Part shown: in pieces, positions 53,298 to 56,644 of the stretch
Position numbering within the stretch: position 1 is the stretch's first letter
Layout of the letters: each line of letters opens with the position of its first letter
Assembly: GCA_963746845.1 (NCBI GenBank)
Contig: CAVVCZ010000004.1
Coordinates: 992,001 to 1,056,000 of the forward strand
Length of the DNA: 64,000 nt
Source of the DNA: an uncultured Chloroflexia bacterium
GTDB taxonomy: Bacteria > Chloroflexota > Limnocylindria > Limnocylindrales > CSP1-4
Direction: 5' to 3'
The notes under the pieces: model-generated
Told to the model about the DNA's origin: nothing
The model's database searches: none
The model's input: the letters and a program-made list of their open reading frames with translations, nothing else
Position numbers and translations under genes: made by a program

Positions 53298-53401
53298 TGC
53301 GCCGGCTGCCATTCAGGCGCTGGACGGGTCAAGTGAAGCCCGGCCGTCGTTTGACGCGCCCGGCGCATGAACCGCGGCGTTCGAGCGCCGATCAGGCTCA
53401 T
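53294..53401 (-). CDS. 35-aa sORF bridging purA and purD
   Basis: The ATG overlaps the purA stop (ATGA) and its TGA overlaps the purD GTG (GTGA). Sequence MSLIGARTPRFMRRARQTTAGLHLTRPAPEWQPAQ. Confidence 0.4.
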   Translation of the reverse strand: MSLIGARTPRFMRRARQTTAGLHLTRPAPEWQPAQ

Positions 53402-54711
53402 CCGGCCACCGCCGGCGTCCGGTGGCGGATCGGCCGCCAGGCCCGCTCGATCGTCTGCGTCCGCTCCGGGCCGACCGACACCAGCACGATCGGGGCCCCG
53501 GCGTGGTCCTCGAGCGCCGTCACGTAGCGCCGGGCGGCGTCCGGCAGTCCGGACAGCGAGCGGACGTCGTGGATCGGCTCGCTCCAGCCGGGGAACTCCT
53601 CGTAGATCGGCGTCGCGCGCGCGAGGAGGTCCGCCGACGACGGCCACGCCTCGACCCGCCGTCCGTCGAGCTCGTACGCGACGCACAGGCGGATCGGGTC
53701 GACGCCGGACAGGATGTCGAGCTTGTTCAGCATGATCGAGCTGACGCTGTTGATCGCGACGGCGAAACGGGCGGACACCGCGTCGAACCAGCCCACCCGG
53801 CGGGGCCGGCCGGTCGTCGTCCCGACCTCGTGACCGCGCTCGGCGATCCCCGCGCCCACCGTGTCCAGGAGCTCGGTCGGGAACGGGCCGGACCCGACCC
53901 GCGTCGCATAGGCCTTCATCACGCCGAAGACCTCGTCGACCTGGCGCGGCCCGATCCCGCCACCCGTGCACGCCCCGCCGGCGACCGGCGACGACGAGGT
54001 CACGTACGGATACGAGCCGTGGTCGAGGTCGAGGAGCGTGCCCTGGGCACCCTCGAGCAGCACGTGGTCCCCGCGCGCGAGGGCGTCCTGGACGAGCCAC
54101 GTGGCGTCGACGAGGTGCGGCTCGAGCCGGCGGCCCCAGCCCAGCGCCCCCTCGACCAGCGCGTCCACCTCGAACCGCGCCTCGGCGCCGAGCGCCGCGA
54201 GGAGCGCGTTCTTCTCGGGAACCGTCCGCTCGAGCTTCGTCCGGAGCGCCGCCTCGTCCAGCAGGTCCTCGAGCCGGACGCCGGCGCGCGACGCCCGGTC
54301 CTCGTACGCAGGCCCGATCCCGCGGCCCGTCGTCCCGACCTTCGCCCCCGCGAGCCGCGTCTCGCGGGCGACGTCGAGCGCCCGGTGGTACGGGAGGATC
54401 ACGTGTGCCGCGAAGCTCGCCCGGAGCCGCGAGACGTCGATCCCGCGCGAGGCCAGGGTGTCGAGCTCGTCGATCAGCGTGGCCGGGTTGACGACGACTC
54501 CGGGCCCGATGACCGGCACGATGTGCGGGTAGAGGATGCCCGACGGCACGAGGTGGAGCTTGAACACCTCGTCCCCGAGCATCAGCGTGTGGCCCGCGTT
54601 GTCGCCGCCCTGGTAGCGGACGACGAGCGCCGTCTGTTCGGCGAGGAAGTCGGTCGTCTTGCCCTTGCCCTCGTCGCCCCACTGGAGCCCGACGACCACG
54701 GTCGCCGGCAC
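53398..54711 (-). CDS. purA: Adenylosuccinate synthetase
   Basis: GLQWGDEGKGK, GGDNAGHT, GTTGRGIGP, EGAQG, TTTGRPRRVGW, NKLD. Confidence 0.97.
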   Translation of the reverse strand: MPATVVVGLQWGDEGKGKTTDFLAEQTALVVRYQGGDNAGHTLMLGDEVFKLHLVPSGILYPHIVPVIGPGVVVNPATLIDELDTLASRGIDVSRLRASFAAHVILPYHRALDVARETRLAGAKVGTTGRGIGPAYEDRASRAGVRLEDLLDEAALRTKLERTVPEKNALLAALGAEARFEVDALVEGALGWGRRLEPHLVDATWLVQDALARGDHVLLEGAQGTLLDLDHGSYPYVTSSSPVAGGACTGGGIGPRQVDEVFGVMKAYATRVGSGPFPTELLDTVGAGIAERGHEVGTTTGRPRRVGWFDAVSARFAVAINSVSSIMLNKLDILSGVDPIRLCVAYELDGRRVEAWPSSADLLARATPIYEEFPGWSEPIHDVRSLSGLPDAARRYVTALEDHAGAPIVLVSVGPERTQTIERAWRPIRHRTPAVAG

Positions 54712-54749
54712 TACCCGCCCACCCGATCGCGGACGGCGGGAACGCGGCC

Positions 54750-54783
54750 AACAAAAAGGCCCCGGGCCGTTGGGCCGGGGACC
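54750..54783 (-). terminator. Intrinsic terminator (attenuator) inside the pur leader
   Basis: GGUCCCCGG-CCCAACGGC-CCGGGGCC followed by UUUUUGUU, about 40 nt before the purA start. Confidence 0.8.
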
Positions 54784-54853
54784 GACTGGATAGACGTCTC
54801 CCGCAGCGCGTCGCCGATGCGACGCCGGAGCGGTTCGAAGACCCGTCGTCGCC

Positions 54854-54886
54854 TCACTGGACGAGCCACGCGCCTTCCTCGGGCAA
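54854..54886 (-). CDS. Putative pur leader peptide (MPEEGAWLVQ)
   Basis: GAAGGAG SD 8 nt before a TTG; 10 codons then TGA. Confidence 0.45.
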   Translation of the reverse strand: MPEEGAWLVQ

Positions 54887-55060
54887 CGGCCGTTCTCCTT
54901 CTGGCGGGCGAGGCCCGCGGGTCGTTCGAGGACGGGGCGAGTATAGCAGCGGGACCCGTTCGACCGGAGACCCCGCCGGGGCCGGGTGGGACGTTCGGTC
55001 GCGGATCGGGGTACCTCCGGCGGGGCCGTCCGGAAGGACCCGACCCTTAGCCTGTGGGGC

Positions 55061-56644
55061 GTGACGCGCCTGCTGGGGGCCCTGGCTCTCCTTGCCTTGT
55101 TCGGGCTGATCGCCGCCCTTGTCGCCGTGCCCACGGCGACCGACTCGTGGTTCGATGGCGGGATCCGATCGATCATGGCCGCGGTCATCGCGGGGCTGGT
55201 CGGCGTGATGATGACGGCCCTCCTCGTCTTCATCTACGCGCGCTTCCGTCTGCCCCGTCTCGTGAAGGCCGCCGAGCGGATGGCGGACGGTGAGCTCGGC
55301 GTCAGCGTGGGCTCGAAGCCGAGCGGCGGCGGGCTCGAGGGGCGGCTCGCGCGGGCCCTCGATCGTCTGTCGGTCGCGCTCGTCGAGACGACGGATGCCG
55401 CGACGATGGACCGGCTCACGGGCGTCAGCAACCGCGCCACGCTGCTCGCGGCGCTGTTCGCGGAGGTCGAGCGGTCGAACCGCTACGAGCGGCCGCTGTC
55501 GGTCGCGTTCGTCGACATCGACCACTTCAAGGCCGTGAACGACTCCTACGGGCACGCCGCGGGCGACGTCGTGCTGCGCGGCGTGGCCCAGGCGATCAAG
55601 ACGAACCTCCGGACCTCGGACTCGATCGGCCGGTACGGCGGCGAGGAGTTCATGCTTCTCCTGACCGAGACCGACATCGAGGAGGGGGCGGTCCTCACCG
55701 AGAAGCTCCGCAACCTCGTCGCCCGCCAGCGCTTCGCGATCGGCCCCGACCAGGAGATCAGCGTCACGATCTCCATCGGGATCGCCGGTGGCGGCGGCGG
55801 TCTCCTCCGGACGGACACGCTCGTGCGGGACGCGGACGCGGCGATGTACTCGGCGAAGTCGCTCGGGCGCAACCAGACGTACGTGTTCGCGGAGCCGGAC
55901 GAGGACGCCCGCGTCCCGCGGGCCCCGATCTCGCCGGCCGGCCGGGCGCTCGCGGTCGAGGTCGGCCGGGCCGCACGCGACGCCGCGACCGCGAGCCTGA
56001 CGTCGGTGATCGCCCCGCTCCCCCACTATCGCGGCCAGCCGTCTCCCCTGATCGCCTCGATCGTCACGATCATGGCCGGCAGCCTCGACCTGCCGGAGGG
56101 CGAGGTCGACCGGATCCGGGTGGCCGCGCTCCTGCACGACGTGGGCAAGGTCGCGGTGCCACAGGACATCCTCGACAAGCCGTCGGCGCTCACGAGCACC
56201 GAATGGCGGACGGTCGTCCAGCACCCCCGGATCGGCCAGGTGATCCTCGAGCAGGCGGCCGCCCTCAAGGAGGCCGTCCCGATCATCCTCCACCACCACG
56301 AGCGCTACTCCGGCCACGGCTATCCATTCGGGCTCCGTGGCAACGACATCCCGCTCGGCGCGCGGATCGTGGCCATCGCCGACGCCTACGACGCGATGAC
56401 CCACGACCGGCCGTACAAGCGGGCGATCGGCCACGACGACGCCGTCAAGGAGCTCCGCCGCCACGCCGGCACCCAGTTCGACCCGGAGCTCGTCACGCTG
56501 TTCTGCGACCTGTTCGCGAACCAGGCCCCGTCGCCCGACCCGACCGTCCTCGCGATCACCGAGGCGCCGGCCGCGTTCGAGGTCGCCCACCGCCGCCGCC
56601 GGCGTCGCCCGTCCGCGGGCGGAACCGGGTCCGCCGCCAGCTGA
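55061..56644 (+). CDS. Membrane HAMP - GGDEF - HD-GYP c-di-GMP turnover protein
   Basis: Two TM helices, a HAMP-like segment, DRLTG, DIDHFKAVND.YGH..GD, RTSD..GRYGGEEF, then LLHDVGK, HHHERY.G.GYP, IADAYDAMT. Confidence 0.92.
   Translation: MTRLLGALALLALFGLIAALVAVPTATDSWFDGGIRSIMAAVIAGLVGVMMTALLVFIYARFRLPRLVKAAERMADGELGVSVGSKPSGGGLEGRLARALDRLSVALVETTDAATMDRLTGVSNRATLLAALFAEVERSNRYERPLSVAFVDIDHFKAVNDSYGHAAGDVVLRGVAQAIKTNLRTSDSIGRYGGEEFMLLLTETDIEEGAVLTEKLRNLVARQRFAIGPDQEISVTISIGIAGGGGGLLRTDTLVRDADAAMYSAKSLGRNQTYVFAEPDEDARVPRAPISPAGRALAVEVGRAARDAATASLTSVIAPLPHYRGQPSPLIASIVTIMAGSLDLPEGEVDRIRVAALLHDVGKVAVPQDILDKPSALTSTEWRTVVQHPRIGQVILEQAAALKEAVPIILHHHERYSGHGYPFGLRGNDIPLGARIVAIADAYDAMTHDRPYKRAIGHDDAVKELRRHAGTQFDPELVTLFCDLFANQAPSPDPTVLAITEAPAAFEVAHRRRRRRPSAGGTGSAAS

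What the first reader, a model, noticed from the sequence alone, without database searches (positions are those of the whole stretch)
54712..54948. Unclassified attenuator in front of the whole pur operon: leader peptide, PyrR-like loop and terminator
Seen in sequence (minus strand): an extended -10 (TGCTATACT, 54940-54948) and then a leader of about 220 nt. The leader holds (i) a strong SD (GAAGGAG) with a TTG uORF MPEEGAWLVQ* (54854-54886); (ii) at the uORF stop, a hairpin UCGUC-CAGUGA-GGCGA; (iii) mutually exclusive stems: CUCC...GGAG enclosing GCGUCGC/GCGACGC, versus GGGAGAC...GUC-gg-UCCC, which would hide the terminator 5' arm; (iv) a GC stem with UUUUUGUU, a rare U-run in this genome; (v) a further hairpin directly before the purA GTG. 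Established knowledge: PyrR binding loops have consensus ARUCCNGNGAGGYU, and this loop fits it with the closing A-U replaced by C-G. I could not match purine, ZTP/pfl or ykkC(PRPP) riboswitch cores by eye. Inference: a novel nucleotide-responsive attenuator, acting either through a PyrR-type protein on purine genes, through ribosome coupling as in pyrBI/pyrL, or as a new riboswitch.
Basis: partly seen in the sequence, partly recalled or inferred. Interest (0 to 1): 0.78.

Follow-up and report, generated by a model that had tools for sequence, protein, structure and literature searches.

The report
Conserved attenuator RNA before purine operon
A roughly 185-base structured RNA leader ending in a terminator sits in front of the whole purine-synthesis operon in one family of uncultured soil bacteria, matches no catalogued RNA family, and carries a hairpin that looks like the binding site of the pyrimidine regulator PyrR.

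Summary
The leader (window 54933..54750, minus strand) runs from a conserved TGnTATACT promoter to the only run of five or more A/T in the 64-kb window. It heads purA-purD-purB-purC-purS-purQ-purL-purF-purM.

A covariance model finds one strong copy per genome in 91 of 108 genomes of the family and in two genomes of a neighbouring family. It found none in the other genomes searched in that class. 87 of 88 copies lie directly before purA. Rfam 15 gives no credible match.

Three helices covary: the P2 tip, P3 and the terminator.

The uORF is not the conserved feature. It is present in 51 of 88 copies, and its start codon is lost in at least 24 that keep the structure.

The P2 tip fits the PyrR loop consensus (RUC-CNGNGA-GGY) in at least 76 of 88 copies. 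It resembles the hairpins before pyrR and carA in the same genomes. It evolves under different constraints, however, and eight leaders in five genera lack it.

The G-box CGGGAGA is complementary to both the P2 tip and the terminator 5' arm, which suggests a three-way switch.

Best reading: a new attenuator, most likely PyrR-responsive (0.36). A new riboswitch is nearly as likely (0.32).

The parts
54940..54948 (-). Extended -10 promoter element TGCTATACT. The predicted transcription start is about 54934..54933.
   Evidence: Sequence. Within 30 nt upstream of the leader, TATACT occurs in 51 of 67 family leaders. TANNNT occurs within range in 59 of 67, and the TGn-extended form in 43 of 67. No TSS data.
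54926..54933 (-). 5' box GUCCUCGA. Its CCUC can pair with the GAGG of the SD-like box (P0), or UCCUCGA can pair with UCGAGGA of box 2.
   Evidence: Nearly invariant in the genus. P0 is paired in 81.9% of cells on A3 with little covariation. The box1:box2 pairing is 97% paired on A1 but never shows a change on both sides.
54904..54918 (-). P1, a variable hairpin (GCGGGC-CUC-GCCCGC).
   Evidence: A hairpin of different sequence and length occurs at the same place in relatives. It was not counted formally because the alignment is poor there.
54895..54901 (-). SD-like purine box (GAAGGAG here, AGGAGG in most relatives).
   Evidence: It is kept even in leaders that have no start codon behind it, which suggests a structural role.
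54854..54886 (-). uORF from TTG to TGA (MPEEGAWLVQ*). It contains box 2, CCCGAGGAAGG (54883..54873).
   Evidence: An SD plus start in frame with the loop UGA is found in 51 of 88 leaders and is absent in 24 of 88 that have a canonical loop.
54847..54865 (-). P2 tip hairpin CUCGUC-CAGUGA-GGCGA(CG), the PyrR-binding-loop look-alike. Its 5' half (element A, UCCAGUG) is also complementary to the G-box.
   Evidence: Six of seven stem pairs show changes on both sides on A3. The hexaloop is CNGNGA in at least 76 of 88 leaders. The PyrR-site model R3 hits the tip in 29 of 67 leaders, but not in this window's own copy.
54835..54841 (-). Box 3, UCUUCGA. It pairs with the GAAGG of box 2 to form the lower stem of a long P2.
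   Evidence: P2a is 86.3% paired, and three of five pairs show changes on both sides on A3.
54801..54833 (-). P3. The outer stem pairs a C-run with the G-box (CCGC/GCGG or CUCC/GGAG). The inner hairpin is GCGUCGC-AUCG-GCGACGC.
   Evidence: Inner stem: two of five pairs show changes on both sides on A1. By my reading of the folds, the isolated segment closes by a C-run x G-run stem in most of the distinct sequences folded. P3 is missing in L045, L098 and L099.
54797..54804 (-). G-box B (GCGGGAGA), the pivot of the proposed switch.
   Evidence: Its best partner across the leader is the P2 tip (mean -10.3 kcal/mol). Next is the terminator 5' arm (-7.6). All other positions score -0.8 to -7.2.
54788..54795 (-). 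d box GUCUAUCC, highly conserved, role unknown.
   Evidence: Conserved across the family and in genus g57. No model so far explains it.
54750..54783 (-). Intrinsic terminator: GGUCCCCGGCC-CAAC-GGCCCGGGGCC followed by UUUUUGUU.
   Evidence: Four of five pairs show changes on both sides and 92.8% of cells are paired on A3. It holds the only A/T run of five or more in the window. By my count of the distances listed, it ends 9 to 13 nt before the purA start in 24 of 87 relatives, so its G-rich 3' arm doubles as the likely purA SD. Metatranscriptome contigs end at 54755 and 54771.
54712..54749 (-). Spacer with a lineage-specific hairpin (CCCGCC...GGGCGGG) before purA.
   Evidence: fold. Not conserved; the spacer length varies from -17 to 347 nt.
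53398..54711 (-). purA (adenylosuccinate synthetase, GTG start, 437 aa), the first gene of the operon.

Best explanation
The element is a cis-acting transcription attenuator. It is a structured 5' leader of about 185 nt, made from a conserved extended -10 promoter. It decides whether RNA polymerase reads through an intrinsic terminator into purA and the rest of the purine operon.

The G-box B (CGGGAGA) is proposed as the pivot. It can pair with the 5' half of the P2 tip (element A, UCCCGUG). That leaves the terminator free to form. Alternatively it can pair with the terminator's 5' arm (GUCCC), which blocks the terminator. The P2 tip hairpin competes with the A:B pairing.

I commit to PyrR as the effector in most of the family. 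PyrR would bind the P2 tip, which has its binding-loop consensus. Binding would lock the hairpin, free B to pair with the terminator arm, and so promote read-through. PyrR binds RNA when UMP/UTP is high and is released by guanine nucleotides. This would raise purine synthesis when pyrimidines exceed purines and shut it off when guanine nucleotides are plentiful.

Shown:
- The conserved element and its position.
- The covarying P2 tip, P3 and terminator.
- The complementarities of B.
- The similarity of the tip to the family's own PyrR sites.
- The presence of pyrR.

Inferred:
- That PyrR binds the tip.
- That A:B and B:terminator-arm pairings form.
- The direction of control.
For: Element and position:
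- There is one strong copy per genome. In the own genome the leader scores 151 bits and the next hit 17 bits.
- It is found in 91 of 108 family genomes.
- 87 of 88 copies lie directly upstream of purA. By my count of the distances listed, 24 of 87 end 9 to 13 nt from the start codon. purA must therefore be transcribed through the terminator.

Structure:
- Changes on both sides are seen in six of seven P2-tip pairs, three of five lower-P2 pairs and four of five terminator pairs. 0 of 500 shuffles reach the covariation score.

Switch:
- The best upstream partner of the terminator 5' arm is B, at -14.3 kcal/mol against -6.0 to -11.0 elsewhere.
- The best partner of B is the P2 tip at -10.3, then the terminator arm at -7.6.
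- A:B is 83.6% paired on A3. One pair shows UA 30 / CG 10 covariation.
- Three natural variants lack P3 but keep P2, B and the terminator.

PyrR:
- The published consensus is ARUCCAGAGAGGYU, and GMP binding is antagonistic to RNA binding (passages of PMC7430163).
- The tip is RUC-CNGNGA-GGY in at least 76 of 88 leaders, and its variation falls at the two N positions.
- The same motif precedes pyrR (34 sites in 33 leaders) and carA.
- A model trained only on 27 pyrR-leader sites hits the purA tip in 29 of 67 leaders. These are 8 of its top 10 hits in 332 kb.
- pyrR is found in 95 of 111 family genomes.
- The near-fixation of the loop as CCGUGA (66 of 76) is what a double constraint would give: PyrR consensus plus pairing with B.
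Against: - Leaders in eight genomes of five genera keep the core but have a different tip: G144, G127, G042, G052, G095, G051, G320 and G294. In the four of these where I read the pyrR leader (G052, G095, G144, G127), PyrR and canonical PyrR sites before pyrR are present. The core therefore works without a PyrR loop.
- The second pair of the tip is C.A in 18 of 76 leaders. It is never C.A in 34 pyrR-leader sites.
- The window's own tip is not among the 36 R3 hits in its genome, where the carA and pyrR sites rank 1, 2, 5 and 10.
- Only 5 of 67 tips reach 18.6 bits or more. The own genome's carA and pyrR sites score 20.5 to 28.8 bits.
- RF00515 gives no match on the leader. It also misses this genome's own pyrR leader.
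- A purine-rich internal bulge at the PyrR-typical distance was not established.
- The strongly conserved d box GUCUAUCC and box 2 have no role in this model.
- B:terminator-arm pairing shows no covariation.
- Thermodynamic modelling predicts the terminator whether or not the tip is forced.
- pyrR was not found in two genomes that hold the leader (G045 and G140, 93% and 91% complete).
Confidence: 0.36

Rival explanations
1. It is a new metabolite-binding riboswitch. The core (box 2, lower P2, P3, G-box and d box) forms an aptamer for a purine-pathway compound. The P2 apical CNGNGA loop is a GNRA-like loop that makes a pseudoknot or tertiary contact with the G-box. On this reading its likeness to PyrR sites is coincidental.
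For: - Sequence conservation extends beyond what a protein hairpin site needs. GAGGAAGG, CGGGAGA and GUCUAUCC persist across the family and in genus g57.
- It has multi-helix architecture followed by a terminator, with one copy per genome before a biosynthetic operon.
- Leaders without the PyrR-like loop keep the core.
- The loop nucleotides CCGUG are complementary to the CGCGG of the G-box.
- Exchange between U.G and C.A at the second pair (38 against 18 leaders) is the kind of isosteric change seen where geometry matters rather than base identity. That last point is my own knowledge.
Against: - No known class matches. Rfam 15 gives 0 matches at gathering thresholds on the window, and at E up to 10 only a chance RNaseP-T match of 10.7 bits against a cut-off of 60.
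- No ligand can be named.
- No junction covariation was established beyond the hairpins.
- The loop-to-G-box pairing has only one covarying pair.
- The exact fit of the tip to the PyrR consensus, in a nucleotide operon of genomes that use that motif before pyrR and carA, would have to be coincidence. By my estimate (109 pattern hits on both strands of the 3.56-Mb genome), the chance of one falling in a given 185-nt stretch is about 0.003.
Confidence: 0.32
2. It is a leader-peptide (ribosome-coupled) attenuator. Translation of the 10-codon uORF, whose stop codon lies in the P2 loop, masks element A and so sets the choice between terminator and antiterminator.
For: - A strong SD, a TTG and a 10-codon ORF ending at the loop UGA occur in 51 of 88 leaders.
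- The peptides follow the pattern M[LP]E[EG]GA..[VA]P.
- By geometry, a ribosome at that stop would cover element A (inference).
Against: - The start codon is TCG in at least 24 of 88 leaders that keep the SD-like box, the loop and the structure.
- Most substitutions in the uORF within the genus are non-synonymous, and the stop is moved in L004 and L011 (read by eye).
- There is no run of regulatory codons.
- Conservation is at the nucleotide level and can be explained by pairing.
Confidence: 0.1
3. It is an independent small RNA gene (promoter, 185 nt, terminator) that merely lies upstream of purA, or a conserved but non-regulatory constitutive terminator.
For: Short metatranscriptome contigs cover 54755..54910 and 54771..54920 and do not run on into purA. 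This is a weak hint only. Contigs cannot show transcript ends, and DNA can be present in RNA libraries.
Against: - In many relatives the U-tract ends 9 to 13 nt before the purA start codon. That leaves no room for a separate purA promoter.
- The element is never found elsewhere. Secondary weak hits lie in coding sequence.
- 87 of 88 copies are tied to purA.
Confidence: 0.04

Closest known systems
PyrR-dependent attenuators of Bacillus pyr operons, and PyrR translational repression in mycobacteria (Rfam RF00515)
   Same: - A hairpin with the RUC-CNGNGA-GGY top.
- A nucleotide-biosynthesis operon.
- A leader with a terminator and mutually exclusive pairings.
- The genome encodes PyrR and carries the same motif before pyrR and carA.
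   Different: - The target is the purine operon, not a pyrimidine operon.
- In Bacillus the binding hairpin is itself the anti-antiterminator, so binding causes termination. Here the hairpin competes with the putative anti-antiterminator A:B, so binding would favour read-through.
- The leader is not matched by RF00515.
- The loop is much less variable than in pyrR-leader sites, and the second pair is often C.A.
- Five genera lack the loop.
- The extra conserved boxes (box 2, G-box, d box) are not part of PyrR sites.
Terminator-type riboswitches that control purine synthesis (guanine/adenine RF00167, ZTP/pfl, PRPP and ppGpp ykkC subtypes)
   Same: A 5' leader of a pur operon, a structured domain followed by an intrinsic terminator, and one copy per regulated operon.
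   Different: There is no sequence or structure match to any of them. The distribution is limited to one family plus one genus. The ligand is unknown.
trp-type 1:2 / 2:3 / 3:4 attenuators, and the pyrBI leader
   Same: The three-way competition A:B, B:terminator-arm and terminator has the same logic. A short uORF overlaps element A in 51 of 88 leaders.
   Different: The uORF start is lost in at least 24 of 88 leaders. There are no regulatory codons. An additional hairpin (A with its own 3' strand) competes for element A.

Membership tests
PyrR binding site / PyrR attenuator (RF00515) | Hairpin top with the consensus ARUCCAGAGAGGYU (terminal hexaloop plus the top of the upper stem) | tested here: met
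   RUC-CNGNGA-GGY is present in at least 76 of 88 leaders, with the outer A-U replaced by C-G. The consensus is taken from passages of PMC7430163. Caveat: the 3' GG is GA in about a quarter of leaders, giving a C.A second pair in 18 of 76.
PyrR binding site / PyrR attenuator (RF00515) | Purine-rich internal bulge below the upper stem, required for binding (PMC7430163, citing Bonner 2001) | tested here: inconclusive
   The 5' strand of lower P2 is purine-rich (GAGGAAGG). It lies 13 nt from the loop, against about 7 nt in this family's pyrR leaders (read by eye). The Bonner 2001 paper is not held.
PyrR binding site / PyrR attenuator (RF00515) | Scores above the Rfam gathering cut-off (54 bits) | tested here: not met
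   No RF00515 match at E up to 10 on 54600..55150. The model is weak in this lineage: its only match in the genome is the carA leader at 22.6 bits, and it misses the pyrR leader.
PyrR binding site / PyrR attenuator (RF00515) | Matches a model built from the family's own PyrR sites | tested here: inconclusive
   R3, built from 27 pyrR-leader sites, hits the tip in 29 of 67 leaders, and these are 8 of the top 10 hits. The window's own tip is not among the 36 hits at E up to 10 in its genome.
PyrR binding site / PyrR attenuator (RF00515) | Lies before pyrimidine synthesis or transport genes | tested here: not met
   87 of 88 copies lie before purA. The operon is purA through purM.
PyrR binding site / PyrR attenuator (RF00515) | PyrR protein encoded in the genome | tested here: met
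   The own genome has a single copy of 186 aa at C5:137059-137616. PyrR is found in 95 of 111 family genomes.
PyrR binding site / PyrR attenuator (RF00515) | PyrR binds the RNA, and UMP/UTP and GTP modulate the binding | not testable with these tools
   Needs a binding assay.
Known purine-related riboswitch classes (purine, ZTP, PRPP, ppGpp, xanthine, 2'-dG and others in Rfam 15) | Match to the class covariance model | tested here: not met
   0 matches at gathering thresholds on the whole window. At E up to 10 on the leader the only match is a chance RNaseP-T hit.
Leader-peptide attenuator | A translated uORF conserved wherever the element occurs, with regulatory codons or an arrest sequence | tested here: not met
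   The uORF is present in 51 of 88 leaders. The start is absent in 24 of 88 with a canonical loop. There are no repeated codons.
Intrinsic (Rho-independent) terminator | GC-rich stem-loop followed by a U-tract, with the stem kept by covariation | tested here: met
   Termination itself was not measured.

The most novel reading that the evidence does not exclude
PyrR, known only as a repressor of pyrimidine genes, acts here as an antiterminator of the whole purine operon. By locking the P2 tip it would prevent the A:B anti-antiterminator. A high pyrimidine-to-guanine nucleotide ratio would then switch purine synthesis on. One protein would balance the two nucleotide pools with opposite logic at pyr and pur leaders. 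The older core of the leader, kept in lineages without the loop, may in addition be a riboswitch, which would make this a two-input device.
Probability: 0.25. Interest if true: 0.8.

Novelty: new variant of a known kind. Interest (0 to 1): 0.62.

Why it matters
How the purine operon is regulated in this family is unknown to me. The lineage is known here only from unnamed, mostly fragmented assemblies. This leader gives a concrete, testable control element for the entire de novo pathway plus the AMP branch.

If the PyrR reading holds, it would be, as far as my searches show, the first case of PyrR controlling purine genes. It would also be the first case with inverted logic, giving a simple mechanism for balancing purine and pyrimidine pools. 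I saw their listings, plus passages of PMC7430163, PMC1913097 and PMC3766115. None mentions PyrR acting on pur genes or a purA leader motif.

If the riboswitch reading holds, it is a new class with an unknown ligand tied to purine synthesis.

Either way it is a clean new RNA family for Rfam-type catalogues, with natural deletion variants that help dissect it: copies without P3, without the terminator, and without the PyrR-like loop.

Tried and rejected
Uninformative or negative steps:
- Whole-leader folding energy against shuffles was uninformative in this 72% GC sequence.
- The promoter/terminator pattern scan found nothing.
- MFE folds of single sequences, full and truncated, were too heterogeneous to give a consensus.
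- A strict column-wise helix finder on 72 sequences recovered only the terminator with real covariation. The other five helices it listed look like chance.
- Partition-function modelling was run with the tip forced or masked. Mean terminator probability was 0.68 unconstrained, 0.74 forced and 0.75 masked, so no switch is predicted.
- Secondary weak R1/R2 hits were checked. The 9 weak secondary hits inspected lie in apparent coding sequence, and the tenth locus there was the true G320 leader. The 3 in family f2 lie in what looks like conserved coding sequence. The 10 weak hits in families f3, f4-g62 and f5 have no purA within 1 kb.
- I conclude that no second target gene was found.
- RF00515 is not sensitive in this lineage.
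- The search for related loci on genome contigs returned only PurA relatives of 56% identity or less from other groups and did not help. I did not try to name the source.
- RNA runs: only contigs at small shares were available. Depth over purA comes from many organisms. The two leader contigs are a weak hint only, and parts without cover mean nothing.
- A box1:box2 alternative pairing is possible, but its pairs never show a change on both sides, so it is untestable here.
- CUCG x CGGG closing of a three-way junction, proposed by RNAalifold on 72 sequences, was considered but not supported by the g5-type leaders.
- A resemblance of ACACGG...GGGAGAG to ykkC-type RNAs comes from my recall only and is rejected.

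Access limits:
- Supplements of papers were not consulted.
- The motif lists in the supplements of the large Breaker-lab and Weinberg screens could hold this motif and were not seen. These papers appeared in the listings.

Unpublished genomes:
- G010 supplied L007, one of the 21 rows of A1 and hence of model R1.
- G210 supplied L209, one of the 33 pyrR leaders tallied. It was left out of A4, A5 and R3.
- G310 appears only as a weak row.
Full report
**What is there**

On the minus strand, the window has purA (53398..54711, GTG start, 437 aa). It is followed by purD, purB, purC, purS, purQ, purL, purF and purM (Pfam). Upstream, a GGDEF/HD-GYP membrane protein is transcribed divergently from about 54986/55054.
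- TGCTATACT at 54948..54940.
- GAAGGAG, then a TTG uORF at 54886..54854.
- The hairpin CUCGUC-CAGUGA-GGCGA, with the uORF stop in its loop.
- The GCGUCGC/GCGACGC hairpin.
- GCGGGAGA.
- A GC-rich stem with UUUUUGUU at 54757..54750.
- A last hairpin before the GTG.

The U-run is the only run of five or more A/T in the 64-kb window, which is 71.9% GC.

**Is it more than chance?**

Single-sequence statistics say nothing here. The folding z-score is -0.19, and the pattern scan found no sites. Comparison settles the question.

All 21 same-genus purA loci carry the same leader. Model R1 was built from them. In the own genome it finds one strong copy at 151 bits, with the next hit at 17 bits. It finds a copy in 91 of 108 genomes of the family. 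The hits span 27 of the family's genera, and every genus sampled had at least one.

At class level the counts by family are:

| Family | R1 | R2 |
|---|---|---|
| f1 | 41 of 44 | 42 of 44 |
| f2 | 0 of 6 | 0 of 6 |
| f3 | 0 of 49 | 7 of 49, weak |
| f4 | 1 of 50 | 5 of 50, 2 strong |
| f5 | 0 of 1 | 1 of 1, weak |

R2 is the broader model. It adds a second genome of genus g57 in family f4. The 10 weak hits fetched from f3, f4-g62 and f5 have no purA within 1 kb and are taken as false.

87 of 88 matches lie directly upstream of purA. The exception is the weakest hit, at 19.9 bits. By my count of the distances listed, in 24 of 87 the model ends 9 to 13 nt before the start codon. purA therefore has to be transcribed through the terminator. 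The G-rich 3' arm of the terminator is also the likely purA ribosome-binding site.

The -10 TATACT stands at a fixed distance in 51 of 67 leaders.

Rfam 15 gives no match at gathering thresholds on the whole window. At E up to 10 on the leader it gives only a chance RNaseP-T hit of 10.7 bits against a cut-off of 60.

**Structure**

On the 67-sequence family alignment A3:

| Helix | Cells paired | Pairs with a change on both sides |
|---|---|---|
| P2 tip | 88.5% | 6 of 7 |
| Lower P2 (GAAGG x CCUUC) | 86.3% | 3 of 5 |
| Terminator | 92.8% | 4 of 5 |

0 of 500 shuffles reach the observed covariation score, and slid controls drop to 44-58% paired.

The P3 inner hairpin covaries within the genus. 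By my reading of the folds, in most sequences it is closed by an outer stem between a C-run and the G-box. P0 (CCUC with the GAGG of the SD-like box) is 82% paired with little covariation.

Natural variants help. P3 is missing in L045, L098 and L099, and the terminator is deleted in L009, while the rest is kept.

**The uORF**

An SD, a start codon and an ORF ending at the loop UGA exist in 51 of 88 leaders. The peptides follow the pattern M[LP]E[EG]GA..[VA]P.

In 24 of 88 leaders with a canonical loop, the codon at the TTG position is TCG and no other start is in frame. The SD-like AGGAGG, the loop and the structure stay.

Within the genus most uORF changes alter the amino acid, and the stop shifts in two loci. 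The uORF is therefore not the conserved functional unit. The AGGAGG box must have an RNA role.

**The PyrR-like tip**

The published PyrR consensus is ARUCCAGAGAGGYU. [quoted passage not shown] GMP binding is antagonistic to RNA binding (passages of the review PMC7430163).

The P2 tip reads CGUC-CNGNGA-GGCG. In at least 76 of 88 leaders the hexaloop fits CNGNGA, with variation only at the two N positions.

The genome has one pyrR. Its leader has two such hairpins just before the SD, and carA has two more. The same motif precedes pyrR in the family, with 34 sites in 33 leaders.

Model R3 was trained on 27 pyrR-leader sites only. It finds the carA sites, which it never saw, at ranks 1 and 5 in the own genome. 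It hits the purA tip in 29 of 67 leaders, and these are 8 of its 10 best hits in 332 kb.

Five points count against PyrR binding:
- The window's own tip is not among the 36 hits in its genome.
- Only five tips reach 18.6 bits or more, against 20.5 to 28.8 bits for the own genome's carA and pyrR sites.
- The purA loop is CCGUGA in 66 of 76 leaders, whereas the pyrR-leader sites use 12 different loops.
- The second pair is C.A in 18 of 76 tips and in 0 of 34 pyrR-leader sites.
- Eight leaders in five genera have an unrelated tip but keep the core: G144, G127, G042, G052, G095, G051, G320 and G294. G052, G095, G144 and G127 have PyrR and canonical sites before pyrR.

**The switch**

I scanned every leader for the best partner of the terminator 5' arm. 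The G-box window stands out, at a mean of -14.3 kcal/mol against -6.0 to -11.0 elsewhere.

I then scanned for the best partner of the G-box. The P2 tip stands out at -10.3, then the terminator arm at -7.6. All other positions score -0.8 to -7.2.

RNAalifold on the genus alignment also chose UCCCGUG x CGCGGGA. On A3 this pairing is 83.6% paired, with one covarying pair (UA 30, CG 10; 1 of 500 shuffles reaches the count of doubly changed cells). That covariation may rest on only two clades. The G-box with the terminator arm is 83.8% paired, without covariation.

So the leader has the 1:2 / 2:3 / 3:4 logic of classical attenuators. There is one addition: element 1 can be taken out of play by its own hairpin, the P2 tip.

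This also explains why the purA loop is more constrained than PyrR sites. Its N positions pair with the G-box.

**Reading**

The attenuator itself is well supported. I put about 0.85 on 'a cis-regulatory leader that controls read-through into the pur operon'.

For the sensor I commit, with modest confidence (0.36), to PyrR binding the tip in most of the family. PyrR would lock the hairpin and leave the G-box free to block the terminator. This gives sensible physiology: more purine synthesis when UMP/UTP is high, and shut-off by guanine nucleotides.

Its direction is inferred only from which pairings compete.

A new riboswitch is almost as likely (0.32). On that reading the core binds a purine-pathway metabolite and the loop contacts the G-box. 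It explains better the conserved boxes (GAGGAAGG, GUCUAUCC) and the lineages without the PyrR-like loop. The two readings are not exclusive.

uORF coupling (0.10) and an independent sRNA (0.04) are minor.

**Expression**

Two soil metatranscriptome runs from two studies hold short contigs about 97% identical to the leader. Each has 5 differences: over 156 nt at 54755..54910 and over 150 nt at 54771..54920. One ends in the U-tract and the other in the terminator loop. No contig at that identity bridges into purA. This is a weak hint only. Contigs cannot show transcript ends, and DNA may be present in such libraries.

**Literature**

Six full-text searches gave no paper describing a purA leader motif or PyrR acting on purine genes. 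I saw listings and abstracts, plus passages of PMC7430163, PMC1913097 and PMC3766115. Supplements were closed, and the original PyrR-RNA paper is not held. The claim 'not in print' is limited to these searches.

**Limits**

- All relatives are unnamed assemblies, many incomplete. Related genomes are not independent, so shuffle counts overstate support.
- E-values from my models are rough.
- One unpublished genome (G010) contributes 1 of the 21 rows of A1 and R1. Another (G210) contributes 1 of the 33 pyrR leaders in the tallies.

Noticed in passing
G000 contig C5:137616-137700 (outside the window); loci L189-L221: The pyrR leaders of this family share a conserved layout: a -10 box (GGTATCCT or GCTAGACT), then CCUUUAAGG, then a PyrR-type hairpin, then GGGAAGGAG. 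In many genomes the SD after the hairpin belongs to a short uORF whose stop overlaps the pyrR start (UGAUG or GUGA). This suggests PyrR represses translation of a coupled uORF.
   Followed up: partly
G000 contig C4:308783-308822 (outside the window; locus L031 1514-1553): Two tandem PyrR-type hairpins (GGUC-CUGUGA-GACC and GGUC-CCGUGA-GGCC) lie directly before the SD of carA. This is the only RF00515 match in the genome (22.6 bits, below the cut-off of 54).
   Followed up: partly
window 54986-56644 (+): The gene transcribed divergently from the pur leader promoter region encodes a membrane protein with GGDEF and HD-GYP-type HD domains, that is, a c-di-GMP turnover protein. Its start lies about 50 to 120 nt from the pur -10 box.
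   Followed up: no
L009 (G021) and L045, L098, L099: There are natural deletion variants of the leader. L009 lacks the terminator hairpin but keeps the upstream domain. L045, L098 and L099 lack P3 but keep P2, the G-box and the terminator.
   Followed up: partly
G198, G053, G177: Three family genomes carry a second PyrR paralogue of about 65-66% identity to the query, besides the main copy. The own genome has only one.
   Followed up: no
L022-L030 (family f2, genomes of about 1.0-1.4 Mb): The sister family has very small genomes and lacks the leader. There purA follows a short leader behind a conserved GGGTACGATCC (-10-like) box.
   Followed up: no
window about 61854 (+), = G000 C4:1053854: A hairpin GUCGCC-CAGCGA-GGCGGC fits the loose PyrR-loop pattern. 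It probably lies inside coding sequence, but this was not checked.
   Followed up: no
L223 (G320, genus g57): In this distant copy the TTG-initiated reading frame runs through the whole leader and stops at a UGA overlapping the purA AUG (UGAUG). The other g57 copy (G294) stops after 13 codons. The long frame is therefore probably accidental.
   Followed up: no
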